Virus record (IMG/VR): IMGVR_UViG_3300048436_000037
Coordinates: 1,619-65,618 of that record
Strand: one strand, 5' to 3'
Source: a virus
Lineage: Duplodnaviria; Caudoviricetes
DNA: 64,000 nucleotides
The notes under the pieces were generated by a model. That model was given only the letters and a program-made list of their open reading frames with translations. It made no database searches and was not told the DNA's origin. This document shows positions 1,467-62,391 of the stretch, piece after piece; the stretch's first letter is position 1, and each line of letters begins with the position of its first letter. The position numbers were made by a program, and so were the translations under genes.

Positions 1467-1805
1467 TTAGTTTTTAATTGGTTTATATTCAGTAGTTGCA
1501 TAGTACTCACTTTCAACTTCATTTTCAAATTCCATTAGTAATTTCGCAAATGCACCATCACCATATAGTTTAACATATAGTTCTTCGAAGCCATCTGTTT
1601 TTACTCCTTTACCGTTTATTACAAATCTTTCAGAAATCTCTGTAATATCGTGGTCATACGCAGGTTTACCATCTTCACCTTCATTGATAATTTCTGATAC
1701 AACACTCCAACAGTCGGCATGTATAGAAAAGAATCCCATGTCTTTGCTAAATTCTGTGTAGACACTACGATCTACATTTACTTGATTTTTAATTACTTTA
1801 CTCAT
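1467..1805 (-). CDS. hypothetical acidic protein
   Basis: 112-aa ORF with AT-rich leader. Confidence 0.7.
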   Translation of the reverse strand: MSKVIKNQVNVDRSVYTEFSKDMGFFSIHADCWSVVSEIINEGEDGKPAYDHDITEISERFVINGKGVKTDGFEELYVKLYGDGAFAKLLMEFENEVESEYYATTEYKPIKN

Positions 1806-1825
1806 AATATTTAATTTTAAATTAG

Positions 1826-1899
1826 GTGCGCAGGGAGGATTCGAACCTCCGACCTCGAGTTTATGAGACTCGCGAGCTAACCAGCTGCTCTACCGCGCA
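1826..1899 (-). tRNA. tRNA with CAT anticodon (Met; Ile2 not excluded)
   Basis: Minus strand TGCGCGG TA GAGC AGCTGGTTA GCTC G CGAGT CTCATAA ACTCG AGGTC GGAGG TTCGAAT CCTCC CTGCGCA C; full cloverleaf; A11:U24 initiator-like but no GGG/CCC anticodon stem; no encoded CCA. Confidence 0.9.
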
Positions 1900-1901
1900 A
1901 T

Positions 1902-1929
1902 AGTGGACGTGGCGGGAATCGAACCCGCG
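1902..1929 (-). pseudogene. orphan tRNA/tmRNA 3' end (T-arm plus acceptor strand), truncated at the cassette array
   Basis: Minus strand C GCGGG TTCGATT CCCGC CACGTCC A CT; no matching 5' acceptor strand found upstream. Confidence 0.6.
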
Positions 1930-1964
1930 ATAAATTGCATTAAAACGCATTTTATCTTAGTGTT
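1922..1964. repeat. attC-like site 0 (compact)
   Basis: AAC ccg CGATAAATTGCATT aa AACGCATTTTATCT tagt GTT; its AAC is the complement of the GTT of the orphan T-arm. Confidence 0.6.
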
Positions 1965-1972
1965 GTAGTGCA

Positions 1973-2233
1973 TTACCTTTTTTCTTTAAGCCATCTTTTG
2001 TATGCGTTTTCTATCTTGGTTCGTTCCATTCCAGAGTACCATTCTATAAAATCAAAAGGTAACGTTCCCTCACTTTCGTTCGGCACAACAACACTATGTA
2101 TAAGTAATTGCTTTCTAACCTTATCTAAATTGGCTCGTGCTTCTGTTACATCAGTACCTTCTTGTCCGTGAAAGTAATCTTCCCAATGTGCTAAAGTATC
2201 ATCTACTTTTTCTAAATAATCTAATGTTGTCAT
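1973..2233 (-). CDS. cassette 1 hypothetical protein
   Basis: 86 aa; LLIHSVVVP is encoded by the arm of attC-like site A. Confidence 0.7.
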   Translation of the reverse strand: MTTLDYLEKVDDTLAHWEDYFHGQEGTDVTEARANLDKVRKQLLIHSVVVPNESEGTLPFDFIEWYSGMERTKIENAYKRWLKEKR

Positions 2234-2286
2234 AATCTATTTTGTTTAATTCTTAATCCCCGCAACTACTCATACATTTTAACGTT
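2090..2286. repeat. attC-like site A
   Basis: AAC act ATGTAT AAGTAATTGC (2090-2111) ... GCAACTACTC ATACAT tttaac GTT (2262-2286). Confidence 0.8.
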
Positions 2287-2294
2287 AGGTGCAA

Positions 2295-2585
2295 TTAGTA
2301 CGCACCATTACTAAACCAATATTTCGTTTCACAATCTTCGCAACAATGAACTTCTTCCCAATCCCAATAGCTACCATCCATAGTAGAACCTTTGCTTTCA
2401 TTGAAACATTTAGGGTATTGCTCGTTGTTCACTTCATATTGTTCGTCATTATCATTATGCCATTTACCGCAATTCGGGCATTTGTAATCTTTAACCTTAA
2501 CTGCACCTAACAATGTATATAAATCATTGCATTTAGGCATTGGTGTAGTTCCGTTCATTTTGTGTTCTAAATCTGTTAAATCCAT
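2295..2585 (-). CDS. cassette 2 zinc-ribbon protein
   Basis: 96 aa with CPNCG...CEDC; CNDLYTLLGA is encoded by the arm of site B. Confidence 0.7.
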   Translation of the reverse strand: MDLTDLEHKMNGTTPMPKCNDLYTLLGAVKVKDYKCPNCGKWHNDNDEQYEVNNEQYPKCFNESKGSTMDGSYWDWEEVHCCEDCETKYWFSNGAY

Positions 2586-2634
2586 AGTTCGTGTTTATTT
2601 ATTGGTAATGCAACGCTTCATATACTCGTCCGTT
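2509..2634. repeat. attC-like site B
   Basis: AAC aat GTATAT AAATCATTGCATT (2509-2533) ... AATGCAACGCTTC ATATAC tcgtcc GTT (2607-2634). Confidence 0.8.
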
Positions 2635-2658
2635 GGCACACATTAAAACGATGATGCC

Positions 2659-2947
2659 AACAACGTGTATAAAAAATAAATTTATTCAAGTTCTTTATCC
2701 GTTATTGCTTTGTACACGCTCTTTAAGTCTGCCATATCTTTAAGGGTTTTAATATAATACAAACCACCATCAACTTCACAGAAATGGCATAAATCCCATC
2801 TACCTTTAAATCTATTGCTTTTTATTATACTAAATTCCAATCTATCGCAATAACTACCATCGGTTTCTTTTCCGAATGTTTGCAGTTTATCTAAGTCTTT
2901 CTCTGTTATCATATCCATAAATTTACATTTTCATACACTTTTAAGTT
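2659..2947. repeat. attC-like site C (entire ORF inside the loop)
   Basis: AAC aac GTGTAT AAAAAATAAATTTA (2659-2684) ... TAAATTTACATTTTC ATACAC ttttaa GTT (2918-2947). Confidence 0.8.
2682..2918 (-). CDS. cassette 3 hypothetical protein
   Basis: 78-aa ORF exactly filling the loop of site C. Confidence 0.7.
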   Translation of the reverse strand: MDMITEKDLDKLQTFGKETDGSYCDRLEFSIIKSNRFKGRWDLCHFCEVDGGLYYIKTLKDMADLKSVYKAITDKELE

Positions 2948-3200
2948 AGCCACAATTATTAGCTAAAAAATCATTTACATCGCTTTCGTCTAATATATCT
3001 TGGCTATCTACCATACATTGGTTTACTTCTTCATTGTAAGCTAATAACAGTTCACGTTGTTGGCTAACATTGTGTATATTTAATGCCTTACTTATCATTT
3101 CCATTGCCATAGTCTGTGATATGGTGGTGTTTAACCAATTATGTTTGTACTTATCACAAACGTCATTGTATATTTGTTTTTGTTGTTCAGTATATTCCAT
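2946..3200 (-). CDS. cassette 4 hypothetical protein
   Basis: 84 aa; ALNIHNVSQQ is encoded by the arm of site D; stop TAA lies in the GTTAGCC core. Confidence 0.7.
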   Translation of the reverse strand: MEYTEQQKQIYNDVCDKYKHNWLNTTISQTMAMEMISKALNIHNVSQQRELLLAYNEEVNQCMVDSQDILDESDVNDFLANNCG

Positions 3201-3252
3201 TTTTATTAATTTTAGTTATTATTCATCGGCACTAATCATACACTTTTAAGTT
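3066..3252. repeat. attC-like site D
   Basis: AAC att GTGTAT ATTTAATGCC (3066-3087) ... GGCACTAATC ATACAC ttttaa GTT (3228-3252). Confidence 0.8.
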
Positions 3253-3421
3253 ATAAGCCATTAAAAGTGATGGTTGCACAATTAAATAGCAAGTGGTAAA
3301 ACGCCCAGCACATTGAAGCTGCAAGAAGTATACTACCCACACTGTAATTCTCTTTTTTTGTAAGCGGTGTAAGAGTTCTTATCACAGCCAATGCAAATAC
3401 AATAATCATTAATTCGTTCAT
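3251..3421 (-). CDS. cassette 5 small membrane protein (56 aa, absent from ORF track)
   Basis: MNELMIIVFALAVIRTLTPLTKKENYSVGSILLAASMCWAFYHLLFNCATITFNGL*; two hydrophobic stretches; stop in the GTTATAA core. Confidence 0.65.
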   Translation of the reverse strand: MNELMIIVFALAVIRTLTPLTKKENYSVGSILLAASMCWAFYHLLFNCATITFNGL

Positions 3422-3444
3422 TTTTCTAATATTAAACGGCTTAT

Positions 3445-3531
3445 AACAAGGGCTAAAATTAATAGCTCTGTCAAGCCAATTACTTAATTGATTAGTTCAT
3501 TACTTAGGCTACTAATCTTAGCCAAACCGTT
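3445..3531. repeat. attC-like site E
   Basis: AAC aag GGCTAA AATTAATAGC (3445-3466) ... GCTACTAATC TTAGCC aaacc GTT (3508-3531). Confidence 0.8.
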
Positions 3532-3573
3532 AAAAATAACCACCTTCTTGCAATCTAATCCAAGCCGGGTTTA

Positions 3574-3674
3574 GTAACTAGTGAGGATTCGAACCTCATA
3601 CCCGTCGGTAGCCATAGTCATTATAGGCTCGTGAAAACGTTTACCTACTTCAGTACTAAACCTGACCTAGTTGC
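3574..3674 (-). ncRNA. tRNA-like element (canonical T-arm and acceptor, aberrant body)
   Basis: Minus strand GCAACTAG...TGAGG TTCGAAT CCTCA CTAGTTAC; internal TCAG/CTGA and GTAGGT/GCCTAT stems; about 100 nt. Confidence 0.5.
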
Positions 3675-3689
3675 CGGCTATTGTGTGAT

Positions 3690-3920
3690 CACTAATCGTA
3701 TCTTTCGCCATCGGTTTTCGTATTTTCTTGAGAGCTATATACCGTAAAACTCTAGTTAGCTATTCGCTTATGTTGTAACTGCACGTCATTTACCGGTGTG
3801 TACCCTGACTTATGTTACACTAATTAAGCTACTCGTCTAGCAATAAACACATTAGAGGATCTTCGTTAGCTTAACTACTTAAAATACCGTAGCCGTACTA
3901 AGCCCTCCACCGTGTTTAAT
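3690..3920 (-). ncRNA. putative structured non-coding RNA region
   Basis: No ORF in track; minus-strand stems AAACAC/GTGTTT, TGGAGG/CCTCTA, GCTTAG/TTAAGC, TAGCT/AGCTA, TGTAAC/GTTACA, GTCA/TGAC. Confidence 0.35.
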
Positions 3921-3922
3921 TT

Positions 3923-4408
3923 TTATACTTTTTTATACTCTATACCGTTGATTACTATGTAATCTTCGTTTACTTTTGTAACATACTCCCAAGTTGGTCT
4001 TGGTTCTATGTCTGTATTTTTTAATAAATACTCTTTTAGAAATACAAGTCTAGTTAACTCGTTGGTAATCAATACTCTTTTGACACCTGCATCATACTTA
4101 TTTACTTTTGTTTTACCATTTTCGTCGATAGTTACCCAATATACTGGAGCTTTTCGCTGTGGATTTAGTTGATAGCAAGACATCTCACCGAACCTAGTGC
4201 GTATTATTCTACGCACCATACCTGATTTATAAGAAGCAAACTTAGATACATCACCATTGCTTGCTGTTACCTCGAACATAGTTGTACCGTTTTTTAATTG
4301 GGTAGGTGTTGTTACTTCTTTAACTGCTGGATATTCTCTTAAGAATATTGCTTTGTAATCGTCTACTAATCTTTGTTGCTGTTGTTGATATTGTTCTGCG
4401 TAAGTCAT
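3923..4408 (-). CDS. hypothetical protein
   Basis: ORF track 3923..4438; MTYAEQ start at 4408 abuts the upstream stop. Confidence 0.7.
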   Translation of the reverse strand: MTYAEQYQQQQQRLVDDYKAIFLREYPAVKEVTTPTQLKNGTTMFEVTASNGDVSKFASYKSGMVRRIIRTRFGEMSCYQLNPQRKAPVYWVTIDENGKTKVNKYDAGVKRVLITNELTRLVFLKEYLLKNTDIEPRPTWEYVTKVNEDYIVINGIEYKKV

Positions 4409-4409
4409 A

Positions 4410-4598
4410 TTATCTTCGTCTTTGTGATTTATGTACAAGCGCGCTTAGCTCTTGGCTTACTATTTGAATTGTGTTACCTGTTTTGTGGTAAGTAATTGGA
4501 ACATAAGAATGTTTTTTTACTTCAGAACAAGGAGGACATGTTTTATATCCTAAGTTTAATCGATAAGGGTGGACTTCGTCGCCGCATTTACAGTACAT
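4410..4598 (-). CDS. DksA/TraR-like C4 zinc-finger protein
   Basis: MYCKCGDEVHPYRLNLGYKTCPPC resembles the CxxCG..I...RL......C..C pattern. Confidence 0.55.
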   Translation of the reverse strand: MYCKCGDEVHPYRLNLGYKTCPPCSEVKKHSYVPITYHKTGNTIQIVSQELSALVHKSQRRR

Positions 4599-4626
4599 AG
4601 TTTATTATTTTTATTTGTTACATATA

Positions 4627-4659
4627 TATTATCCAGTAGTAATTTTATTTTGTTTGTAA
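4627..4659 (-). promoter_or_regulatory. early promoter-like motif copy 1
   Basis: Minus strand TTACAAACA-N16-GGATAATA, intergenic upstream of 4598. Confidence 0.75.
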
Positions 4660-4863
4660 TTAATCACACTCGTAATACTTTCTTTTAATAGACATATACA
4701 TTTTTTCAACAGCTAAGAACATAACCATATCGTGTAGCTCTTTATAGTCGTCTCCACTTACAGGTTGATCCGCTATTTGCCAATCAATGCTGTCTTCCAT
4801 TAATTCTTTAGTGACGTCAGCAACACCTTGTGCTATTTCGTCTATTTCTTTTATTTTACTCAT
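4660..4863 (-). CDS. hypothetical protein
   Basis: 67-aa ORF in operon. Confidence 0.65.
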   Translation of the reverse strand: MSKIKEIDEIAQGVADVTKELMEDSIDWQIADQPVSGDDYKELHDMVMFLAVEKMYMSIKRKYYECD

Positions 4864-4987
4864 CTCTTCTGGTTTATTAGTTCTTCAACTTCACAGAATA
4901 ACATTTCATCTATATCTGCTCTAGTGTAATACTCTTTGCATAGCTCGTATGCTAAATCCCATGGATTTTTAACTGGTTGATTGTTCA

Positions 4988-5200
4988 TTATAAATATTTT
5001 TTAACTCTTTCTTTTATTAATAGTATATCTCTGTCTGTTATATACATAGCTTGCTCGTATTCTAAAGTGTTACTTATAATACTGCTAAAATTTTCCCACA
5101 TCTTTAAATCCATTTGCATAGCAATAGAATCTATATGTTCTTCTGATAAGGTCTGCTTATCTTCTTGTATTTCGTGCCATTTTTTTACTGAATCACTCAT
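4988..5200 (-). CDS. hypothetical protein
   Basis: 70-aa ORF in operon. Confidence 0.65.
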   Translation of the reverse strand: MSDSVKKWHEIQEDKQTLSEEHIDSIAMQMDLKMWENFSSIISNTLEYEQAMYITDRDILLIKERVKKYL

Positions 5201-5312
5201 ATTATATTATTTTATTAATTCTTCTAATTTTTCAATGAAGCCAGGATATTCTGATCTCATATCCTCGCCGTATAGTTCATACCATGTATTATCTATTATA
5301 CTTATATCTTCT

Positions 5313-5519
5313 TTATGCATCTTGGTATTTTTTAAGTGTCATGTCATTTACTTTATCAATGATCTCATTACCTACCATAGTGAAGTAACCTTGTGCAAAA
5401 ATAGATCTTTTCCCGTCAGCCTCAGCTGCTTTAACATCTTCTTCTGCTTGTTCGATAGCGGATTTTAACGCTGTTTGGATGAAATACTTTTCAAATCCAT
5501 TAAATTTAGTTTTACTCAT
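5313..5519 (-). CDS. hypothetical protein
   Basis: 68-aa ORF, TAATG coupling with upstream gene. Confidence 0.7.
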   Translation of the reverse strand: MSKTKFNGFEKYFIQTALKSAIEQAEEDVKAAEADGKRSIFAQGYFTMVGNEIIDKVNDMTLKKYQDA

Positions 5520-5785
5520 TACAGTGTCTTTTTTATTATTAATAGTTGTTTTGTGTCAAACTTCTTGTGAGTTTCTTGCCACATACGGTTGTGGGTGAAC
5601 TTTCTAGCTTTTGCGAAGTTAGATTTCTGACGAGTTGTAATACTATTGTATTCTTTGTCAGTTAGTCCACCACATACACCGTCTGCTCGAACAGCACGTC
5701 TATGCCCGTCTGCTCGTATTTGTTTTTGTAGTTCCGAGTAAGCTAGTAGCTCTTTCATAGTTCTCGGATTAGATATTACGCCCAT
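5519..5785 (-). CDS. hypothetical basic protein
   Basis: 88-aa ORF overlapping neighbours. Confidence 0.65.
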   Translation of the reverse strand: MGVISNPRTMKELLAYSELQKQIRADGHRRAVRADGVCGGLTDKEYNSITTRQKSNFAKARKFTHNRMWQETHKKFDTKQLLIIKKTL

Positions 5786-5970
5786 GGATTAGTAGATTTT
5801 TCAACATAAGTTAAACCTTTGTAGTTGAACCATTGAATAATACCTTCTTGATCTTTATTCTCATCATAGATGAAGGCAAATCTTTTTGGTAGATTACCTA
5901 CAGTATAGCCTTTGTAGGTTATACCATTAAGTTTTATTGTACTTGAATTTTGAAATTTAATTGTCTGCAT
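5776..5970 (-). CDS. hypothetical protein
   Basis: 64-aa ORF directly downstream of promoter motif. Confidence 0.7.
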   Translation of the reverse strand: MQTIKFQNSSTIKLNGITYKGYTVGNLPKRFAFIYDENKDQEGIIQWFNYKGLTYVEKSTNPWA

Positions 5971-5996
5971 AGTTTATTATTTATTATTTACATTTA

Positions 5997-6029
5997 TATT
6001 ATCCAATAGTAATATTATTTTGTTTGTAA
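5997..6029 (-). promoter_or_regulatory. early promoter-like motif copy 2
   Basis: TTACAAACA-N16-GGATAATA. Confidence 0.75.
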
Positions 6030-17701: not shown

Positions 17702-17857
17702 ATGGGCGGCCAATCTATAGGGATAGGTATATGGTGGCCTACCCAAACTTCACTTATACCAGGCTTAATAAAAACTTTATGCGCAAGATCCACATATTGT
17801 GAAAATAAGACCTGCACCACAGCTATACTTCAAAAACTAGAAAACTGTAAATCATAA
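17702..17857 (+). CDS. small hypothetical protein (51 aa, absent from ORF track)
   Basis: MGGQSIGIGIWWP...LENCKS*; TAATG-coupled to 17857. Confidence 0.55.
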   Translation: MGGQSIGIGIWWPTQTSLIPGLIKTLCARSTYCENKTCTTAILQKLENCKS

Positions 17858-20800
17858 TGAGTAACTTACTGAAAGACGCCTCAATACTTTTAACTCCTAC
17901 CGCCTATGACAATGGGCGTATGAATGCTATTAAGCCCTACAAAGATTTAGAAGGACCAGAGCTTGTGACTAACGGTGATTTTTCACAAGGTACTCAAGAT
18001 TGGACTTTTAATACCAACGGAAACAATCAATGGAGTGTTCCAGTTAGTGAAAAAGCTTCTTACGCAGGAACTGCAACTGATTTTATCATAACCAACAATA
18101 TACTTACTGTTGGTAAAAAGTATCGGGTTTCATTTAATATATTAGATACTAATGGCTCAACAATAAGATTATCTGTAAATTCAGAAGCTGGAGGTTCTTT
18201 TGAAGACTACAATGGTGGGGATGGTTTATATACAACATATTTAACTGCTGGTACTAACTATTTAAGAATTGGTGGTAGTTCATCTGGGGCAGCGTTTTCA
18301 ATAGACAATGTTTCAGTAGTAGAAGATTTAAGTGGTGATTTCCAATTCGAAAGAAATTCTGCAGCGACCCGAGTTAATGCACAAGGTTTAGTAGAGAATG
18401 TACAGATACTCAGTCCAGAGTTAGTTTCAAATGGTAACTTTTCACAGATAGGTACAGAAGAAGTTTTAAACGGTAACTTTTCACAAGAAGGTTCAGAGCT
18501 TGTAACAAATGGAGATTTTGCTACTGATAGTGATTGGATAAAAGGCAGTGGAACAACTATAAGTGGAGGTCAAGCTAATTTAGATGGAAGTTTATCTGGT
18601 AGTTTTCAAGACCCATTAAGGCAATCTTCTGTTTTTACAGTAGGTAAAACTTATAAAGTAGAATATACAATTTCTAACTATGTAAGTGGTGCAGTTACGG
18701 TTTTTGGAAATGGTGCAACAGAGGTTTCTGCAAATGGTACTTACACTCAATACATAACTGCAACTATAACAACTTTAAGTTTTCAAAATAGAGCAGTTCC
18801 TATAACTTGCTCAATAGACAACGTTTCAGTTAAAGAAGTCGGACAAAATTGGAGTTTAGATACTGGATGGAGTATTGGAGAGGATAAAATTATTGCAACA
18901 AACGTTAATAGCACTTTTTTAGACCAATTAAACATATTAACTACTGGTAAATCATATAAAATAACATACACAATATTAGATTATGTTAGTGGTAGTGTTA
19001 GATTTAGAGCAAATTTAGTTAATGGTGCTAACAATTTTGCTAATGGTACATATACAGATTATATTGTATCTGCTGGTACAAAATTTGCACTACAAGGATT
19101 AAATAACTTCAATGGCTCTATAACAAACATCTCAGTTAAAGAAGTAGGGCAAGATTGGAGTATAGGTACTGGTTGGAGTGTAGACCAAGCTAATAGTAAG
19201 GCAGTAAGTGATACAACTACATCAAATTTAACATCATCAACAACACTAATATCGGGTAGAAAATATAAATTTAAATTAGATTCAGAAGCAATATCTAGTG
19301 GTAGTTATAGTTTTTTAATAAGGTTTAATTCTACGAATACTGACATAGGTGTTATAAATTCAGATGGTTCTCACGAGTTTACAGTTGTAGCAGATTCAAC
19401 AAGTTTTAGATTACAAACATTAAGTGGAGGTTCAACATCTTTTTCTATCACAAACATCTCAGTTAAAGAAATAACAGACGATACAAACATACCTAGAATA
19501 AACTACGAAGGGTTTAGTTATCAAGATACTTTAGGAAGTGAGGAAATTGTAAATGGTGATTTTAGTAATGGAAATGCTAATTGGACAATAGAAAACACTT
19601 GGACTATTGGAGATGGTGTAGCAAATGGTAATGGGGCAAATGGTAATACTGAAGAATTAGTACAATCATTAAGTTTTGACTCTAGCAAAAAATACAAAAT
19701 TTCTTATCAAATTTTAAACTACGTTAGTGGAAGTGTTAGGTATTCACTTTCTGGTGGAGGTGGATATAACGGTCAAAATAAGTCTGCAAACGGAACGTAT
19801 GTTGATATTATAAATACTGGGTCAAGTCATAATCAAATAAAATTCTTTGGTCTTAATTTTAACGGCTCTATAACAAATGTATCTGTAAAAGAATATTTTG
19901 GTCAAGAAGTAGTGCCAGGTAGTGGTTGTGGGAGTTGGTTATTAGAGCCGCAGAGTACGAATTTGATAACTTATAGTGAGGATTTTAGTGATAGTAGTTG
20001 GTATAAAGCACAGACAACAACTGAAGCTGTAAATATAGCAATGCCAAATGGTGTAATTAATGGGTATAAATTATTTGCAAATACCTCAAACTCTAGTCAT
20101 TACCTAGAAGTAACACCTTTTCCAACAGCAACTGCTGGTCAAAATTTTACGTTAAGTTTGTTTATAAAAAGTGCTGGAAGTGGTTTTATACAAGTTGCTT
20201 CTTCAACTGGTTTTAATTCAAGATATCAAAACTTTAATATTTCAACGGGAACAAAAGCAAGTGGAGATATTTCAGATAGTAGTATTACAGATTTTGGTAA
20301 TGGATGGTATAGAATTTCAGTAACAGAAACAACAACTGGAACAAATGCAAGATATTTAATTATGCCAATACTTTCAGATGGCATAAGAAATCCTCAATTT
20401 ACTGGAAATGCTGATGAAGATGGTGTTTATATTTGGGGCGCACAGCTAGAACAACAATCCTACGCAACCTCGTACATTCCCACTTCGGGAGCTGCAAACA
20501 CTAGGCTACAAGATATTGCAACCAATAGTGGGAACTCAAGTTTAATAAATAGTACAGAGGGTGTGTCGTATTTTGAAACAAGCGCTTTTGACGATATTAG
20601 TTCTTTAAGACTAATAACACTTAAATCTGCTGATAATAATAATAGAGTTTCAATAGGTTATTCAAATGCTACAGACAATATTAGGGTTATAGTTAGAGCT
20701 AATGGCTCTAATGTAGTTAATCAAAATTTTACTGCTAGTAATTTAACTGATATTAATAAATTTGCTTTTAAATATAAAAGTGGAGCAAGTTCTATTTACT

Positions 20801-22518
20801 TGAATGGTTCAGAAGTTTTAGACTTATCTGCTGGTAATTTTACATTTTCACAAGAATTATCTAAACTTAATTTTGACGGGGGTAATGGAACTAATCCTTT
20901 CTACGGAAAAGCAAAAGCACTAGCAGTTTACAAAGAAGCATTAACAGATGCAAATCTAAGATGTCTTACATATCCAAATCCAGTTGCAACAACATTTGAT
21001 TTAGACTTTGATACTATTGCAGAGCAGTTTACTTTTACTAGAGGATCTGAAGCTACGTTCGTAAATGAACAAGGGTTAATTGAAAGTACAAACACTTTAA
21101 CTTCAAATTTAGTAATAGATGAAGAGTCTCTTCCATTAACAGGGTGGAGTAGAGATGGAGATGTTTATGCAGCTGTAAATGCTACAAGTAATGTTGTTTT
21201 AAACTACACGTCAGGTTTCAACTTTTCTATAGGTGATTTAGTTGAAGTTTCGTATGAAGTTTTTGATTACGTTTCAGGACAACCCAGATTACAATTATCT
21301 GGCGGTGGTCAAGCAATATACACTACACCAGTTAGCTCAAACGGTGTTTTTACCGAAACATTGTTACTAATAGGTAATAATACAGCAGGCGCTATTATAC
21401 ATAATAATACTAACCCTACTTTAAAAATAAGGAATCTTTCAATTAAGAAAATAATAACTGCAACTAACACACCAAGAATAGATTACTCAACTGGTGAAAA
21501 AGCATTTTTACTAGAACCTCAGAGTACAAACTTGATACCTTATAGTGAGGACTTTAGTGACGCTTCCTACTCTAAAGCAAGTGGAGGTTTAGGTTCTGTA
21601 CCTATTGTAACGTCCAACTACTCAACAAGTCCAAGTGGAGAACAAAATGCAGATAGAATACAATTTGATTTAAACGGAGGCACAAGTGGAAGTGATTCTT
21701 CTTGGATATTTACCTTTCCAGCATCAGATGTTGATGGAGTAGTTTCTATTTACCTAAAAACAAACGATAATTCAACTAAAGTTGTTTATTTTAGAAATAC
21801 ATTTGGAACAATAGACAACGTTACTGTCAATGGTAATTGGCAAAGGTATTCTATCACAAACCCTACTACCAGGGGGTTTTATCTCGGTTTGAGAGGTAGT
21901 CAAGGCAATAGTGATAGTGCTGACTTATCCGTTTGGGGTGCTCAAATAGAAGCTCTCCCTTACGCAACTTCGTATATCCCAACATCTGGAGCATCAGCAA
22001 CTAGAAATCAAGAATTATGTGTAGATGCAACACCGGTTATTAATAGCGAGGAAGGAACATTGTATGCTGAGATAAGTGCTTTGGCTAATGACGGTACGAA
22101 TCGCATTATAAGTTTAAACAATGGAACTACTAGTAACTTAGTTAGGTTTTTTTATGGTGTAGAAAGTAACAAGATTATAGCTAGTGTAAAATCAAATGGT
22201 GGAACTACTTTTAGTTATACTTATACTTTAACTGACCCAACTGATTTTATAAAAATAGCTTTAAAATACAAAGAAAATGATTTTGCTCTGTGGGTAAATG
22301 GTACTGAGGTTGCAACAGACACAAGCGGTGCAACACCTGCGAGTGGGGTTTTGGATAGATTAGATTTTTCAAATGCTGGAAATACATCAATATTCTTCGG
22401 TAACACAAAAGGTTTAAAAGTTTATCCAAAAGCATTAGCAGACGTACAATTAGAAGATTTAACAACAATAACACTAGACACTATTTTTGGTTCAACATTT
22501 GACATAACATTTAATTAA
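17857..22518 (+). CDS. large head/tail spike adhesin with LamG-like and carbohydrate-binding-like modules
   Basis: 1553 aa; two scaffold copies (F.R.S.AT.VN.QGL...PRI.Y...LLEPQSTNL...WGAQ.E...YATSYIPTSG...INS.EG) plus repeated ELVTNGDF...SVKE modules. Confidence 0.75.
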   Translation: MSNLLKDASILLTPTAYDNGRMNAIKPYKDLEGPELVTNGDFSQGTQDWTFNTNGNNQWSVPVSEKASYAGTATDFIITNNILTVGKKYRVSFNILDTNGSTIRLSVNSEAGGSFEDYNGGDGLYTTYLTAGTNYLRIGGSSSGAAFSIDNVSVVEDLSGDFQFERNSAATRVNAQGLVENVQILSPELVSNGNFSQIGTEEVLNGNFSQEGSELVTNGDFATDSDWIKGSGTTISGGQANLDGSLSGSFQDPLRQSSVFTVGKTYKVEYTISNYVSGAVTVFGNGATEVSANGTYTQYITATITTLSFQNRAVPITCSIDNVSVKEVGQNWSLDTGWSIGEDKIIATNVNSTFLDQLNILTTGKSYKITYTILDYVSGSVRFRANLVNGANNFANGTYTDYIVSAGTKFALQGLNNFNGSITNISVKEVGQDWSIGTGWSVDQANSKAVSDTTTSNLTSSTTLISGRKYKFKLDSEAISSGSYSFLIRFNSTNTDIGVINSDGSHEFTVVADSTSFRLQTLSGGSTSFSITNISVKEITDDTNIPRINYEGFSYQDTLGSEEIVNGDFSNGNANWTIENTWTIGDGVANGNGANGNTEELVQSLSFDSSKKYKISYQILNYVSGSVRYSLSGGGGYNGQNKSANGTYVDIINTGSSHNQIKFFGLNFNGSITNVSVKEYFGQEVVPGSGCGSWLLEPQSTNLITYSEDFSDSSWYKAQTTTEAVNIAMPNGVINGYKLFANTSNSSHYLEVTPFPTATAGQNFTLSLFIKSAGSGFIQVASSTGFNSRYQNFNISTGTKASGDISDSSITDFGNGWYRISVTETTTGTNARYLIMPILSDGIRNPQFTGNADEDGVYIWGAQLEQQSYATSYIPTSGAANTRLQDIATNSGNSSLINSTEGVSYFETSAFDDISSLRLITLKSADNNNRVSIGYSNATDNIRVIVRANGSNVVNQNFTASNLTDINKFAFKYKSGASSIYLNGSEVLDLSAGNFTFSQELSKLNFDGGNGTNPFYGKAKALAVYKEALTDANLRCLTYPNPVATTFDLDFDTIAEQFTFTRGSEATFVNEQGLIESTNTLTSNLVIDEESLPLTGWSRDGDVYAAVNATSNVVLNYTSGFNFSIGDLVEVSYEVFDYVSGQPRLQLSGGGQAIYTTPVSSNGVFTETLLLIGNNTAGAIIHNNTNPTLKIRNLSIKKIITATNTPRIDYSTGEKAFLLEPQSTNLIPYSEDFSDASYSKASGGLGSVPIVTSNYSTSPSGEQNADRIQFDLNGGTSGSDSSWIFTFPASDVDGVVSIYLKTNDNSTKVVYFRNTFGTIDNVTVNGNWQRYSITNPTTRGFYLGLRGSQGNSDSADLSVWGAQIEALPYATSYIPTSGASATRNQELCVDATPVINSEEGTLYAEISALANDGTNRIISLNNGTTSNLVRFFYGVESNKIIASVKSNGGTTFSYTYTLTDPTDFIKIALKYKENDFALWVNGTEVATDTSGATPASGVLDRLDFSNAGNTSIFFGNTKGLKVYPKALADVQLEDLTTITLDTIFGSTFDITFN

Positions 22519-42218: not shown

Positions 42219-45200
42219 ATGTATACTTACGAAGGTGTTTCATATACTATAAATCAAATACAAGAAGCTGCAAAAAAGTCTAACATGTCTGTTGATGATT
42301 ATGTTAAAAAAATAAAAGCAGATACTAAAACAGAACCTACAAAAGAGGTAGAAAGTGCAGGCTTACTTGATTCAACAACTTTTCAAACGGACGCTGCAAC
42401 GGGTGCAGGTGTGGTGTCTCAACCAATGACAGCATCACAAGCGGGATATGTAGAAGTAGGAGATACGGGATCACCTTTGGAAGATACTTCCTCGGAATTA
42501 CAAGATCCTGATCCAGACAAACCTTTATCTGCTAGCGAGAAAAGAATAGCAACTAGAAAAAAAAGAGAACAAGAAAAGCAGGATAGATTAAAAGCTGAAG
42601 CAATTTCAGCTGAAAATGTAATAAACGATAGAATAAAAAATATACCAAAAGAAGATATAATAGCTATTCAAGCTAGTGATTATTTTGGACCTATAAAAGG
42701 TAGAAATGATAGAACAACTGTAAGTAGAACGATGATTGGTCAAATGGGTCCAACCGTGTCATTTGAACCTACTTTTAAGTCAGATGAAGGTTATACTAAA
42801 TATTTAAAGCAAACTCTAGGTAACAAATATAATCAATATTTAGATTATAAAGAAACAAACGAAATAATACCTCTTAACGCTAACAATGAATCTCAGTTAA
42901 AAAATATATACAACGAAGCTGAAACAAAAGCTAAAGATAAGGTATACAACAATAGTTTATTTAATGTTCCAGAGAATGTTCAGGAGTACATGGTGGCTAG
43001 TCCAAAATTTGCTAGTGGAGCAGAAAGCATAGAGGCTCAAAAGTTTTTAGTTAAAGGTCAAGAAGAAACTTTAAGAAAAAACATTGAAAGCTACGAAAAA
43101 GCTAAAAAAGAATGGGAGTCTCAAGCTTTACCACTTAATCAAGAGGTTAAAAATCTTAAGACTCAAATAGATAGATTTAAGTTTTATACCGCTGGTGCAA
43201 GTCAAGAACAAGCAGACCAATACAATGAGTTGATACAGACCTATAACGCTAAAATACAGCAGTGGGAAGAAAAAGGCTTCAATGAATTACCTGCTTTTTT
43301 GAACTCACAATACAAACTAGTAAATTCACAGCAAAAGGATTATTCTAAAATGCGTGAAGACTCTAGGAGAGCTTTAATAGACTATGATTTATTTGAAAAA
43401 AATCTAAAACAAGATTATAGTGCAAGCGCTAGAGTTGGTAGGGTTTTTGATGAGTTTTTTGTACAGTCTGGTAGAAACTTTATAGACTTATATGCTGAGT
43501 TATACTTGAAAGGAGCTAGAAAAATAGGTGAATTTTATAAACCTCTCTCCTTCTTAACAAGTCCAGAAAACTCTGCAAAAGTAGATTCTTTAATAGAGAC
43601 AATACAGAAAAATAATAAAAACTACAATTTAGGTATGGCTTCTAAAAGAGAAAACATACCTACATCTCCATCTATAGATGATATAGGTAAAGATGGTTTG
43701 TCTATATGGGACTGGACATCTATAGCTCTTCAAGATAATTCAGCAACAATAGCCACCACATTTATACCTACAGGCGCTGCAATTAAGGGGGCGGCTGGTA
43801 TATCTAAGGCTGTTAAAGCTAGTAAGGGAATGAAAGAAGCTTTACAAAAACAAAAAGCTTTGTGGTTAGCTGGTAAAAGAACTGTTCAAGGAACTTTCTT
43901 TGTAGCTGAAACAGGTGGTAAATATGGAGAACTGCAAACAGACGAAGCGTCTAGAGAACAAGAAATAAAGTTTTTATACTCAAAACTGAATAATACTGAG
44001 GACATAAATGAAAAAACTGAAATATACAATAAGATTAATGAGCTTGAAGAGGTAGAAAACTATAGTTTACTTCAAAAAGCCTTTACATCTTATAGTGCTG
44101 GAGCTACAGCTACATTTCTCGAGAGTATAAGTACTTTGAAAATGCTAGAACCGGCTAAAGGTTTATCTAAACAAATAGGTATCAATGCAGCTAAAAAAGA
44201 ATTATACAAACAACCTGTTAGATTTAGTGCTAACTTACTAGGTAAGACTGCAGCAGGTTTAAAATCTTTACCAAAAAACCTTACTGGAGAAGTACTGGAA
44301 GAGGTAACTACAGAAGTATCTCATAATGCTTTAGATATATTAGTGTTAGGTGAAAACAAATCTATGTTTGAAGGAATTAATAAAGACTTTCTAGCAAGTA
44401 CAGCTATGAGTAGTTTTGGTATAATGGCACCTAGATCAGCTGGAAATATATTTAACATCGTAAAAAGTGAATTTAGAACTAAAAACGAAATATTCAAAAA
44501 CCAAGAGCTATCTAGAGAGCTTATAGATCTTAATGAGTCAACAACACCAGAAAACTCAAAACAACTTAGAGTTAGAAAAAAAGAAATATTAAAAGAGCTG
44601 GCCCTTAGCGATGCTATTAGTTTGCATAAGTTAAGATACATGACATCAGACCAAATAGAAGAGGTTGCTGATATTAACAGGCAAATTAGGCAAGTTAATA
44701 GTAAATTTACACAACTAGGTGGTTTAGGTGATTTAGGTGAAGCTGAAAACAAACGTGTTAAGAAACAACTAGAAAAAGAGTACTTTAACTTAACTACTGC
44801 TAGGCAAGAAATTCTAGATGCCAAACAAAGATCTAACACTAAGAAAGCTGCAAATATAAACAAAGCTTTAGGTAATGCTGCTAGAAACTCTGAAGCAGCT
44901 TTTTATTATGGTGTAAATAACTTTTACAATGATTTAACTATGACTCAAATGGGTGATGGTGAATTTGTTTCTATAAAAGGTGAAATTCAAGATGATGGTA
45001 AAATAAAATATGATGACTTAGATAATCAACTAGCCAAGTATAAAAATAAAAACATTAAAAATGAAGAAGGTGAAAGTGTTGATGCTTTTGAGTATTTAAA
45101 AACAAAAATAGAGCAAGGGGATTTTAACGCTACTACTATTGGAAAAGATATAATAGTAAACCAACCCATAATAGATAGAAATATAGCTATAGCACCTACT

Positions 45201-61605: not shown

Positions 61606-62391
61606 TTACAGAAAGTCAATCACTTGCGAGCTATCTACGTTAGCTATTAATTTATCTATAGCAGCCTTTTTTAGCTCAGATATTCTCACATAATTACTAA
61701 CTCCAGTTATGTTTAGCTTAACAGCTATTTCTTTAGCTGAATGTTTTTCACAGTCCATACCGTAACTCAATCTTATAACTTCGTATTCTGTATTGCTTAA
61801 GTACTGTTTCATTATACCCATCAAATAAGCATTCATAAGATCTATATTATAAGGAGTTGAGTTGTCTTCTATAGACTGAGCAAAACTCATTGTATTATCG
61901 TCATTTTTGTAAGTATTACTTTTACTTACTTGCTCATTATCTAAAGAAGTAAACATACTTGTTATAAAGATTTTACTTAAATCTTCATTGTCTGGATTTT
62001 TACGTATTTCATTTAGCTTATGCTCTGGTATTCTCATACCTCCTTTGTTTATATCTATACGTCTACGTATTGCACCTTTAATTCGTTTACTTAAAAATGA
62101 CTTTAAAGTTTTTTCAACATCAGGAGATTGATCTATAACTAACCAGTCTATTTTGTTTACAGCTTTAACCAAAGCTTCATTACCTATTTGTATTAAATCA
62201 TTAATACTAAGTATTCCAGATGCTTGATCACTAGTTGAAAACTTTCTAGCTAGATTTTCTACCAAAGGCATAAACTTAATTATAAGTTCATCTTTAGTGT
62301 ACTCATCGTAAAACTTACCTTCAAGGTTAGCTATAGATGTTTTAACATCTGTCTTATATCTTACGTAATTTTGTACGTTATATTTCTTCAT
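61606..62391 (-). CDS. phage RNA polymerase sigma factor (sigma70 family)
   Basis: LV..LARKF, DLIQIGN..L.KAV, RIKGAI, MRIP, region 4 VIRL.YG...EIA..L. Confidence 0.88.
   Translation of the reverse strand: MKKYNVQNYVRYKTDVKTSIANLEGKFYDEYTKDELIIKFMPLVENLARKFSTSDQASGILSINDLIQIGNEALVKAVNKIDWLVIDQSPDVEKTLKSFLSKRIKGAIRRRIDINKGGMRIPEHKLNEIRKNPDNEDLSKIFITSMFTSLDNEQVSKSNTYKNDDNTMSFAQSIEDNSTPYNIDLMNAYLMGIMKQYLSNTEYEVIRLSYGMDCEKHSAKEIAVKLNITGVSNYVRISELKKAAIDKLIANVDSSQVIDFL

What the first reader, a model, noticed from the sequence alone, without database searches (positions are those of the whole stretch)
2090..3531. Cassette sites conserve structure, not sequence: fixed G.T wobbles mark the minus strand as the folding strand
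The boxes covary: ATGTAT/ATACAT, GTATAT/ATATAC, GTGTAT/ATACAC (twice) and GGCTAA/TTAGCC. In sites A, B, D and E the stem has an A.C mismatch on the plus strand at positions +1 and +6 after the box. Site C keeps +1 and site 0 keeps +6. These become G.T wobbles on the minus strand. The spacers are asymmetric (3 nt versus 4-6 nt). Inference: a protein recognises a single-stranded hairpin of the minus strand, as IntI recognises the attC bottom strand, but the geometry differs from the extrahelical-base pattern of proteobacterial attC. This may be a distinct site class with its own recombinase. Because the minus strand is also the mRNA, an RNA-level role is an alternative.
Basis: partly seen in the sequence, partly recalled or inferred. 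Interest (0 to 1): 0.8.

Follow-up and report, generated by a model that had tools for sequence, protein, structure and literature searches.

The report
Folded junctions of phage gene cassettes
Five small early genes of this marine phage sit in roughly 300-base cassettes whose ends fold together through helices that keep their shape but not their sequence, and such cassettes are gained, lost and re-ordered between phages exactly at an AAC/GTT mark, much as in integrons but with a new kind of site.

Summary
Window 1958-3531 is a strict alternation of two kinds of long-range helix. T1 has 16 bp: a 6-bp box, G.U, 4 bp, G.U or a mismatch, then 4 bp. T2 is a GTTR.../...YAAC stem. Together they tile five one-gene cassettes read on the minus strand.

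Pairing covaries: 9.84 of 11 variable positions are complementary in cognate arms against 5.5 in non-cognate arms, with 0 of 10000 permutations as high. The +6 position is never Watson-Crick in 82 distinct sites.

T1 helices form only in the minus (sense) strand, with pair probability 0.90-1.00 against 0.00.

The same architecture occurs in at least four unrelated marine phage lineages and in four cultured Cellulophaga phages. Cassettes are present or absent, replaced and re-ordered exactly at the GTT/AAC triplet. One fixed flank is followed by 22 different cassettes.

No tyrosine recombinase, serine recombinase or Y1 transposase is encoded in this phage. In the Cellulophaga phages the arrays lie just upstream of an ordinary tyrosine recombinase.

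Best reading: a new class of structured, attC-like cassette junction in phages of Flavobacteriaceae. It remains open whether the helices act as single-stranded DNA (a recombination site), as mRNA (cistron insulation or processing), or both.

The parts
1928..1964 (-). Fixed flank ('anchor') ending in ...TTAGTGTT. It is a compact AAC..GTT-bounded hairpin with loop ATTAAAAC, and the array starts immediately after its GTT (1962-1964).
   Evidence: Its last 30 nt occur in 5 viral and 21 metagenome loci. They are followed right after GTT by 22 different sequences. Its hairpin is a full palindrome in L054. Contigs of runs X5 and X8 diverge at 1964.
1965..2286 (-). Cassette 1. It holds ORF 1973..2233 (86 aa), T2 stem 1962-1971/2083-2092, and T1 site A: YAAC 2089-2092, arms 2096-2111/2262-2277, spacer 2278-2283, GTT 2284-2286.
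   Evidence: The T1 helix is 16/16 pairs in the minus-strand MFE with probability 0.96, and 0/16 on the plus strand. It is absent from relative L017, with the junction at GTT. A contig of X3 ends at 2286.
2287..2634 (-). Cassette 2. It holds ORF 2295..2585 (96 aa, Cys-rich), T2 stem 2284-2297/2498-2511, and T1 site B: arms 2515-2530/2610-2625, GTT 2632-2634.
   Evidence: T1 is 15/16 in the minus MFE with probability 0.90, and 0/16 on the plus strand. A loose end of X3 lies at 2634.
2635..2947 (-). Cassette 3. It holds ORF 2682..2918 (78 aa) entirely inside the T1 loop, a small T2 hairpin 2632-2638/2655-2661 (loop ATTAAAAC), and T1 site C: arms 2665-2680/2923-2938 with a 1-nt irregularity, GTT 2945-2947.
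   Evidence: +1 is A.C and +6 is A.A. The helix is not recovered in the global fold on either strand. The junction region 2618-2680 is 92% identical to one in the unrelated phage G001. A loose end of X3 lies at 2948.
2948..3252 (-). Cassette 4. It holds ORF 2946..3200 (84 aa; its stop codon is completed by the AA of the next AAC), T2 stem 2945-2951/3062-3068, and T1 site D: arms 3072-3087/3228-3243, GTT 3250-3252.
   Evidence: The ORF hits phrog_30067 at E 3.4e-5. The cassette is shared with L017 (88% overall; the T1 part is identical in the printed alignment), with identity ending exactly at GTT on both sides. T1 is 15/16 in the minus MFE with probability 0.91, and 0/16 on the plus strand.
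3253..3531 (-). Cassette 5. It holds ORF 3251..3421 (56 aa, hydrophobic) entirely inside T2 (stems 3250-3265/3432-3447), and the compact T1 site E: YAAC 3444-3447, arms 3451-3466/3508-3523, 41-nt loop, GTT 3529-3531.
   Evidence: T1 is 16/16 in the minus MFE with probability 1.00, and 0/16 on the plus strand.

Best explanation
The region is an array of five mobile single-gene cassettes bounded by a new class of structured junction.

Anatomy, read in the sense (minus) strand:
- Each cassette begins with AAC, a 5-7 nt spacer (often TTAAAA) and a 16-nt 5' arm.
- An A-rich leader follows, with the start codon about 38-50 nt after the box.
- The matching 16-nt 3' arm follows, usually inside the coding sequence.
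- After 3 nt comes a GTTR... stem, whose partner ...YAAC lies at the end of the gene.
- The two helices (T1 and T2) therefore bring both ends of the cassette together at one junction, next to the invariant AAC/GTT triplets.

Shown:
- The helices covary.
- T1 carries a fixed wobble at +1 and a never-Watson-Crick position at +6, so only the sense strand can form it.
- Cassettes are units of gain, loss, replacement and re-ordering between phage genomes, with joints exactly at AAC/GTT and no flanking identity.

Inferred:
- Exchange is carried out by a site- or structure-specific reaction at the base of the helices on a folded single strand. This is the same logic as integron attC recombination.
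- The enzyme is supplied in trans. It is not encoded by this phage. Candidates are the tyrosine recombinase that adjoins the arrays in Cellulophaga phages, or a host enzyme.
- The same helices very probably also form in the polycistronic mRNA.
For: Structure:
- Left and right arms were found by flank motifs alone and then paired by adjacency. The 38 pairs are complementary at 9.84 of 11 variable positions, against 5.5 for non-cognate arms. None of 10000 permutations reached this.
- In 28 sites of one size class, 95.9% of cells pair against 71.0% when shuffled (0 of 500), and 12 of 16 pairs change on both sides.
- Among 82 distinct arm pairs there are 22 box types, and +6 is never Watson-Crick.

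Strand:
- T1 helices a, c, e and g have pair probability 0.90-1.00 in the minus strand and 0.00 in the plus strand.

Cassette logic:
- R'(n) matches R''(n+1) over 8.64 nt on average, against 5.21 for its own R'' and 4.89 for random pairs.

Exchange at GTT/AAC:
- Relative L017 lacks window 1965-2947, with the joint at GTT. The shared cassette 4 ends at GTT on both sides.
- Runs X4, X5 and X8 cover the flanks but have zero depth over 2001-3400. Their contigs and those of X3 break at 1964, 2286, 2634 and 2948.
- One 30-nt flank is followed by 22 different cassette starts.
- The same cassette lies behind three different neighbours, and lies first in L044 but about 1.27 kb into the array in L043.
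- In cultured Cellulophaga phages with 96-99% identical flanks, a whole cassette (99.2% identical) changes order relative to another block. Its left end is exactly |AAC. The conserved right flank starts at (T)AAC after four different sequences.

Spread:
- The sites occur in at least four phage lineages that share almost no proteins.

Candidate enzyme:
- The arrays lie directly upstream of a tyrosine recombinase in all four Cellulophaga phage loci examined: phi46:3, phi18:3 and the two other records L070 and L072.
Against: - PF00589, PF00239 and PF01797 are not found in G000 (100% complete), G003 (98%), G006 (88%), G001 or G004.
- The Cellulophaga recombinase is a generic Phage_integrase plus SAM_5 protein. 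The NCBIfam scan listed only three weak tyrosine-recombinase matches, all far below their cut-offs. It may simply be the lysogeny integrase.
- With DNA parameters at 37 C the elements fold weakly. Most z-scores are near 0 (-2.8 to +0.9 on the minus strand), and the closing stem is lost in site e. Loops of 100-170 nt are long for a single-stranded DNA site.
- The fixed distance to the start codon, a leader that looks similar between cassettes in the alignment and, by my reading of the junction, stop codons in all three frames all point to a role in expression.
- Modules smaller than a cassette also swap. T2 alone is shared by L047 and L053. T1 is identical but T2 about 80% identical between the window and L017. 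Class A arms are identical around unrelated loops. One crossover point at GTT does not explain these.
- No circular or excised form was observed. The only read-laying run used contigs, not raw reads.
Confidence: 0.5

Rival explanations
1. The helices act only in RNA. In the polycistronic early mRNA, T1 and T2 fold each cistron into a closed two-domain unit. The unit would insulate the A-rich start region, mark processing sites, or protect the transcript ends. Cassette exchange would then be a by-product of microhomology, template switching at stem bases, or the phage's own annealing proteins.
For: - T1 forms only in the sense strand, and with high probability as RNA.
- The RNA z-scores of the five T1 elements on the minus strand are -2.4 to -5.4. 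With DNA parameters they range from -2.2 to +0.5, and four of five are weaker than -2.
- The sites are always co-oriented with the ORFs.
- ATG lies 38-50 nt after the box in 23 of 34 sites.
- The 3' arm is read in frame 0 (11 sites), frame 1 (8), frame 2 (1) or lies after the stop (8). The constraint is therefore on the nucleic acid and tied to the transcript.
- No recombinase is encoded.
- The phage encodes Erf and a PDDEXK exonuclease.
Against: - Joints are nucleotide-exact at AAC/GTT with no flanking identity: 22 partners of one flank, plus re-ordering of a whole cassette between near-identical phages. This needs a DNA-level mechanism that RNA function alone does not supply.
- G.U at +6 is never replaced by G-C or A-U in 82 sites. 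That is more than helix stability would demand.
Confidence: 0.35
2. This is ordinary homologous recombination between repeated regulatory sequences, as with the PeSL promoter-terminator cassettes of T4-type phages. Under this reading the long-range pairing would have no role in the exchange.
For: - The setting is a hypervariable island of ORFans between conserved flanks.
- Arm classes are identical over 25-27 nt in different contigs with unrelated loops.
- Some breakpoints lie at arm ends.
- The phage encodes Erf or Sak4-type annealing proteins.
- The PeSL abstracts describe indels and replacements at such motifs, and mini-circles.
Against: - At the GTT joints the sequences on one side are unrelated. 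Examples are the fixed flank ...ATCTTAGTGTT against ...CACTTTTAAGTT, and three different left neighbours of one cassette. No stretch of identity is available for homologous exchange.
- This model does not explain the covariation of distant arms or the fixed wobbles.
Confidence: 0.08
3. The inverted repeats are DNA signals of another kind. They could be invertible segments (invertons), or hairpin-type promoters that expose the template strand for a single-strand-dependent virion RNA polymerase.
For: - Inverted repeats flank segments that hold gene starts.
- The non-template strand folds while the template strand cannot.
- A preprint reports that the crAss-like virion polymerase gp66 transcribes denatured DNA, and that its early transcripts share no upstream sequence motif (passages read).
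- The window has a 2805-aa ORF and a crAss muzzle-type domain.
Against: - No site was seen in the inverted state. All are in one orientation in every genome, and the 15 joints printed (14 more were not shown) include none that changes strand.
- No invertase is encoded.
- The giant ORF was not shown to be a polymerase.
- The sites also occur in 27-37 kb phages and in temperate Cellulophaga phages.
Confidence: 0.05

Closest known systems
Integron gene cassettes and their attC sites
   Same: - The order of elements is the same: ...AAC, spacer, paired box, variable loop, paired box, spacer, GTT...
- Only the AAC/GTT triplets and the shape are conserved.
- Strand-marking irregularities sit in the stem.
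- Cassettes are one small ORF each and lie in arrays.
- The cassette boundary is at GTT.
- The cassette start is complementary to the cassette's own distal box, as expected if a circular form rebuilds the site.
- The attC features come from passages of PMC3053210 and, for box order and size, from recall.
   Different: - No integron integrase is present, and no attI/Pc platform is recognised.
- There are two wobbles or mismatches 5 nt apart instead of two extrahelical bases (T-N6-G).
- The central spacers are unequal (3 nt against 5-7 nt).
- Loops reach 270 nt and contain the gene's leader and N-terminal codons.
- The folding strand is the coding strand.
- The elements are found in phage genomes, including apparently lytic ones.
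PeSL mobile regulatory cassettes of T4-type phages (Arbiol 2010; Comeau 2014; abstracts read)
   Same: - Small ORFan genes lie in hyperplastic early regions.
- They are flanked by repeated structured motifs at which indels, replacements and shuffling occur between related phages.
   Different: - A PeSL is a sigma-70-type promoter plus a local terminator hairpin, exchanged by homologous recombination.
- Here the helices are long-range and covarying, their sequences differ between cassettes, and the joints fall at a 3-nt mark without flanking identity.
RNase III processing sites between phage T7 early genes (recalled, not checked in a paper)
   Same: Irregular helices with an internal loop lie at cistron boundaries of a polycistronic early transcript.
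   Different: The T7 sites are local hairpins between genes. Here the helices enclose half or all of a gene. Nothing here shows cleavage.

Membership tests
Integron attC site / integron | Conserved AAC and GTT triplets at the two ends of an imperfect palindrome | tested here: met
   The motif-only search finds YAAC...GTTR flanks around covarying arms. AAC and GTT are the points where identity between genomes ends.
Integron attC site / integron | [quoted passage not shown] | tested here: not met
   There are no bulged bases. Instead there is a wobble at +1 (A.C on the plus strand in 63 of 82 sites) and a never-Watson-Crick pair at +6 (72 of 82 A.C), 5 nt apart.
Integron attC site / integron | An adjacent integron integrase (tyrosine recombinase) with an attI site | tested here: not met
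   PF00589 is absent from G000 at E<=1 and from five other records at E<=0.1. The tyrosine recombinase beside the Cellulophaga arrays gave only three weak NCBIfam matches, all far below their cut-offs. I did not check that an integron-integrase model is in that library.
Integron attC site / integron | The cassette start is complementary to the cassette's own inverse core; the boundary lies within GTT | tested here: met
   R'(n) against R''(n+1) matches 8.64 nt, against 5.21 for its own R'' and 4.89 for random pairs. Boundaries are shown. The exact bond within GTT cannot be resolved.
Integron attC site / integron | A match to the attC covariance model of IntegronFinder; site length about 57-141 nt (recalled) | not testable with these tools
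   I know of no attC family in Rfam (recalled). The Rfam search of 1700-4100 matched nothing at the sites. Site lengths here run from about 45 to about 290 nt from YAAC to GTT.
PeSL regulatory cassettes (T4-type phages) | Composite strong promoter plus local terminator stem-loop between ORFs | tested here: inconclusive
   There is no local hairpin plus T-run at most junctions, and the helices are long-range. No promoter test suited to Bacteroidota was available, and I did not run the sigma-70 scan.
PeSL regulatory cassettes (T4-type phages) | Exchange by homologous recombination within the repeated motif | tested here: not met
   Joints at GTT have unrelated sequence on one side. Some swaps of loops between identical arms would fit this model.
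IS200/IS605 or REP/RAYT hairpin elements | Y1 HUH transposase acting on subterminal single-strand hairpins | tested here: not met
   PF01797 is absent from five array-bearing records at E<=0.1. The helices are long-range, not subterminal hairpins.
Invertible DNA segments (invertons) | Both orientations present in populations; an invertase nearby | tested here: not met
   All sites have one orientation. None of the 15 joints printed changes strand; 14 more were not shown (contigs only). PF00239 and PF00589 are absent.

The most novel reading that the evidence does not exclude
Phages of marine Flavobacteriaceae, lytic and temperate alike, share an integron-like gene-cassette exchange network that runs on a previously undescribed class of folded single-strand site. 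The gene's own 5' leader and coding sequence form the site. Fixed G.T wobbles choose the strand. The recombinase is supplied in trans, by a prophage or host tyrosine recombinase or by an unknown structure-specific enzyme. This would be the first 'phage integron', and a route for rapid trading of early, probably host-takeover or anti-defence, genes.
Probability: 0.35. Interest if true: 0.9.

Novelty: new variant of a known kind. Interest (0 to 1): 0.8.

Why it matters
Hypervariable islands of tiny early genes are where phages keep host-takeover and counter-defence functions. How these genes move between unrelated phages is poorly understood.

This element gives a sequence-level handle: a recognisable, strand-specific junction at which whole genes are exchanged between at least four unrelated phage lineages in the sea.

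If the helices are a recombination substrate, this is a second, independent invention of attC-type single-strand recombination, or a distant branch of it, outside integrons and without an integron integrase.

If the helices act in RNA, this is an unusual architecture in which every cistron of a polycistronic mRNA is closed by pairing of its 5' leader and its 3' end with its own middle.

Either way the question is directly testable, because four cultured Cellulophaga phages carry the element.

Tried and rejected
- Near and distant BLAST of the region against cultured phage records found nothing.
- Rfam found only tRNA-Met at gathering thresholds. With E<=1 there was nothing at the sites.
- The five cassette proteins gave no Pfam hits and only weak PHROG hits. 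phrog_30067 for the 84-aa ORF was the only one below 1e-3.
- An exact 17-mer scan of viral contigs gave 8 loci. Two (L003, L005) had the site context and six looked like chance.
- A degenerate right-arm pattern in one genome per prokaryote species gave 8 scattered single hits and no arrays. That pattern covers only one arm class, so host genomes are not excluded.
- Flavobacterium phage elemoE (first 50 kb only) and Cellulophaga phage phi40:1 have no sites.
- I looked for a protein shared by all array-bearing lineages and found none at E 1e-5. A long tail-fibre-like protein is shared by three of them. Neighbours of the G003 array are an AAA_25 ATPase, a phosphoesterase and a weak sigma-like protein.
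- The far end of the array (about 3532-3574) could not be matched in the fetched loci.
- A first count of breakpoints was swamped by the shared flank. The cleaner count gave 10 of 26 internal block ends within 6 nt of a landmark, against 6.4% of positions. It is a lower bound, because some sites escape my pattern.
- Chance and protein paralogy were rejected as full explanations. The same arm is read in two frames or lies after the stop, and pairing covaries.
- The literature searches listed no description of attC-like sites or cassette arrays of this kind in phages. Much of the literature lies outside that library, and supplements were closed, so earlier description cannot be excluded. A search for transcriptome data on phi18:3 found nothing usable.
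Full report
WHERE THE WINDOW COMES FROM. The window is 64,000 of the 65,618 bases of one virus record that is rated complete.
- Its genes are those of a tailed phage. They include a P22-type portal, a crAss muzzle-type domain, GroEL, ribonucleotide reductase, thymidylate synthase, a primase-helicase, Erf, a PDDEXK exonuclease and a 2805-aa ORF.
- The portal is 42% identical to that of Flavobacterium phages (Elemovirus) and 29-34% identical to that of Cellulophaga phages.
- The runs that hold the sequence are marine.
- The host is therefore very probably a marine member of the Flavobacteriaceae (inference).
- The finding lies at the start of a long block of small minus-strand ORFs, next to tRNA-Met at 1825-1899.

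ANATOMY. Window 1958-3531 is a strict alternation of two kinds of long-range inverted repeat.

Type 1 (T1), five copies, has this layout on the plus strand:
- YAAC, 3 nt, a 6-bp box (NNNTAW), A, 4 nt, A, 4 nt.
- Then a loop of 41 to about 250 nt.
- Then 4 nt, C, 4 nt, C, the complementary box, 5-6 nt, and GTT.

Type 2 (T2), five copies, starts at that GTT (GTTR...). It pairs with the ...YAAC that precedes the next T1.

The minus-strand ORFs of 86, 96, 78, 84 and 56 aa fit this frame, one per T2+T1 unit. Read in the sense strand, each unit runs as follows:
- AAC, spacer and 5' arm.
- A-rich leader, then ATG.
- 3' arm, 3 nt, then GTTR stem.
- The rest of the ORF and the stop.
- The partner stem.

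Two stop codons (ORFs 84 and 56) are completed by the AA of the next AAC.

IS IT MORE THAN CHANCE?
- With any box allowed, the genome has 4 sites on one strand and none on the other, against 0.5 expected.
- I then detected left and right arms by their flank motifs alone, with no pairing condition, and paired each left arm with the next right arm. This gave 38 pairs in 9 sources. They are complementary at 9.84 of 11 variable positions, against 5.5 for non-cognate combinations. None of 10000 permutations reached this.
- In 82 distinct arm pairs from all sources, the helix is 16 bp long and there are 22 different boxes. Most positions show two to four Watson-Crick pair types. Position +1 is A.C on the plus strand in 63 sites and Watson-Crick in 14. 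Position +6 is A.C in 72, A.A in 7, A.G in 3 and never Watson-Crick.
- A formal count on 28 sites of the long size class gave 95.9% paired cells, against 71.0% when shuffled and 34-44% when slid. Changes on both sides occur in 12 of 16 pairs. Those 28 sites had been pre-selected for pairing, so one search is the unbiased test. One row shows A-U at +6 in that alignment, which I take to be a register slip around an insertion.

WHICH STRAND FOLDS? I folded 1940-3560 as one RNA.
- In the minus strand, T1 helices a, c, e and g appear in the minimum-energy structure with 15-16 of 16 pairs and mean pair probability 0.90-1.00.
- In the plus strand all five T1 helices have 0 pairs and probability 0.00.
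- Site d is not recovered on either strand, and the T2 helices are mixed.
- Element by element, the minus strand is more stable in four of five T1 sites. The minus-strand z-scores run from -2.4 to -5.4 as RNA.
- With DNA parameters at 37 C the energies are small. Most z-scores are near zero, and the closing stem of site e is lost.
Energetically an RNA helix is easier to believe than a single-stranded DNA one.

RELATION TO THE GENES.
- In 23 of the 34 sites examined, an ORF of at least 30 aa starts 38-50 nt after the box. In 6 sites no such ORF starts within 120 nt. The other 5 start at +4 (four sites), +29 or +102.
- The 3' arm lies inside the ORF in frame 0 (11 sites), frame 1 (8) or frame 2 (1), or after the stop (8).
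- The same nucleotide arm is thus translated as ...xxLxIxxV... in some genes and as ...EAINYTRCC... in others. The constraint is on the nucleic acid, not the protein.
- Arm classes do go with protein families, so coding constraints add to the conservation of the arms.
- Loop lengths cluster at about 98-101 nt and about 161-179 nt. I cannot explain this.

THE SAME ELEMENT ELSEWHERE.
- Pattern scans found arrays in other IMG/VR contigs.
- By all-against-all protein comparison these belong to at least four lineages that share almost nothing with the window's phage. G000 against G001 gives one hit, and G000 against G003 gives hits to two proteins.
- Even so, junction sequences reach 92% identity over 63 nt, and modules of 144-847 nt are 94-98% identical between lineages.
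- Four cultured Cellulophaga baltica phage records carry 2-5 sense-oriented sites with G.U at +6 in all 13 and at +1 in 12 of the 13. The records are phi46:3, phi18:3, and two records of 72,369 and 75,994 bp.
- These sites lie in a variable stretch of about 2 kb between flanks that are 96-99% identical, directly upstream of a tyrosine recombinase gene.

CASSETTES ARE UNITS OF EXCHANGE, AND THE JOINT IS AT GTT/AAC.
(a) The relative L017 goes from ...TTAGTGTT straight into AGCCACAATTA.... It therefore lacks window 1965-2947 (three cassettes). The two window joints share only GTT. Cassette 4 is shared, and its identity ends at GTT on both sides.
(b) In three other seawater runs, contigs cover 1-2000 and from about 3400 to 6000, but depth is zero over 2001-3400. 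Contigs break at 1964, 2286, 2634 and 2948, each the last base of a GTT or one base beyond it.
(c) The 30 nt that end at 1964 occur in 27 rows, which is 25 distinct contigs including the window because two contigs are held in both collections. They are followed at once by 22 different sequences, nearly all fitting GTT|R....AAT-type starts. The pattern I searched with ended in GTT, so joints further left could not be seen.
(d) One cassette start lies at the anchor in L044 but about 1.27 kb into the array in L043. Another cassette has three different left neighbours.
(e) In the cultured phages a complete cassette (99.2% identical) lies before another block in one phage and after it in the other. 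Its left end is exactly |AAC. The conserved right flank begins at (T)AAC after four unrelated sequences. Isolate genomes rule out assembly chimeras for this point.
(f) R'(n) pairs with R''(n+1) rather than with its own R'' (8.64 nt against 5.21, random 4.89). This is what is expected if a circular cassette rebuilds a continuous R-spacer-L hairpin. It is equally what an RNA T2 helix requires.

WHAT DOES NOT FIT A SIMPLE INTEGRON PICTURE.
- No tyrosine recombinase, serine recombinase or Y1 transposase is found in the window's genome or in four other array-bearing records, two of them 88-98% complete.
- The recombinase beside the Cellulophaga arrays is a generic phage integrase. It may be there for lysogeny.
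- Sub-cassette modules swap too:
  - T2 alone is shared by L047 and L053, with identity ending at YAAC+A.
  - The window and L017 share T1 identically, but T2 is only about 80% identical.
  - Five contigs share identical class A arms around unrelated loops.
- Breakpoints therefore occur at the ends of both helices. This suggests either a structure-guided process (template switching or cutting at stem bases) or a mix of site-specific and homologous events.

MOST LIKELY MECHANISM.
- Shown: a covarying, strand-specific, two-helix junction that brings the two ends of each gene cassette together, and exchange of cassettes at the AAC/GTT triplet without flanking identity.
- Inferred: the folded sense strand is the substrate of a site- or structure-specific exchange reaction, analogous to attC, carried out by an enzyme supplied in trans. 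The same helices also form in the early mRNA.
- I put 0.5 on the recombination-substrate reading and 0.35 on a purely RNA role with incidental exchange. The remainder goes to PeSL-type homologous exchange alone and to other DNA signals.

COMPARISON WITH KNOWN SYSTEMS.
- The element works like an integron cassette array, but it fails two defining tests of membership: it has no extrahelical bases and no integron integrase.
- It occupies the ecological place of the PeSL cassettes of T4-type phages (abstracts), but it lacks their promoter-terminator anatomy and their reliance on sequence identity.
- My literature searches listed no prior description. The library is partial and supplements were closed.

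VERDICT. This is a new variant of a known kind, mobile gene cassettes with structured junctions, and it is of high interest because cultured systems exist in which to test it.

Noticed in passing
window 1825-1899 and 1900-1934: tRNA-Met is precisely present or absent in relatives: a joint 1822->1901 is seen in runs X4 and X5. Directly beside it lies a fragment that reads like the T-arm and 3' acceptor half of a tRNA, with a weak sub-threshold tmRNA-like match over 1901-1995. It might be a relic of an attachment site.
   Followed up: partly
window 3540-3920: This is a 380-nt stretch without ORFs that is conserved in relatives; their coverage resumes at about 3574. On the minus strand it holds a GGTTCGAATCC T-loop-like motif and a D-arm-like stem. 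ARAGORN and Rfam call nothing there. It could be a degenerate or intron-bearing tRNA, or another RNA.
   Followed up: partly
window 2639-2654, 1938-1950; L017, L054 and other anchor loci: Small hairpins recur with the same loop, ATTAAAAC (GTTTTAAT in the sense strand). They occur in the T2 hairpin 'h', in the anchor, and in a second hairpin left of the anchor in most relatives. Their function is unknown.
   Followed up: partly
window 2656-2667 and 3053-3064: A perfect 12-nt complement (GCCAACAACGTG / CACGTTGTTGGC) spans 385 nt and competes with the T2 stems h and x. It may offer an alternative fold.
   Followed up: no
window 17857-22518: This 1553-aa ORF is 30-37% identical to proteins of the otherwise unrelated array-bearing phages G003 and G006. 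If it is a receptor-binding protein, these phages may share hosts, which would allow co-infection and cassette trading.
   Followed up: no
window 42219-50636: An ORF of 2805 aa lies in the structural block. The related Elemovirus has an annotated structural protein of about 3690 aa at the matching place. I did not test whether it is a virion RNA polymerase.
   Followed up: no
window 61609-62391; L024 13536-14078: Weak matches to sigma-70 regions 2 and 4 occur in a 261-aa protein of this phage and in a 181-aa protein beside the array of G003. All are below the Pfam cut-offs.
   Followed up: no
sites in all sources: T1 loop lengths fall into two narrow classes, about 98-101 nt and about 161-179 nt, although the loop sequences are unrelated. 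I have no explanation.
   Followed up: partly
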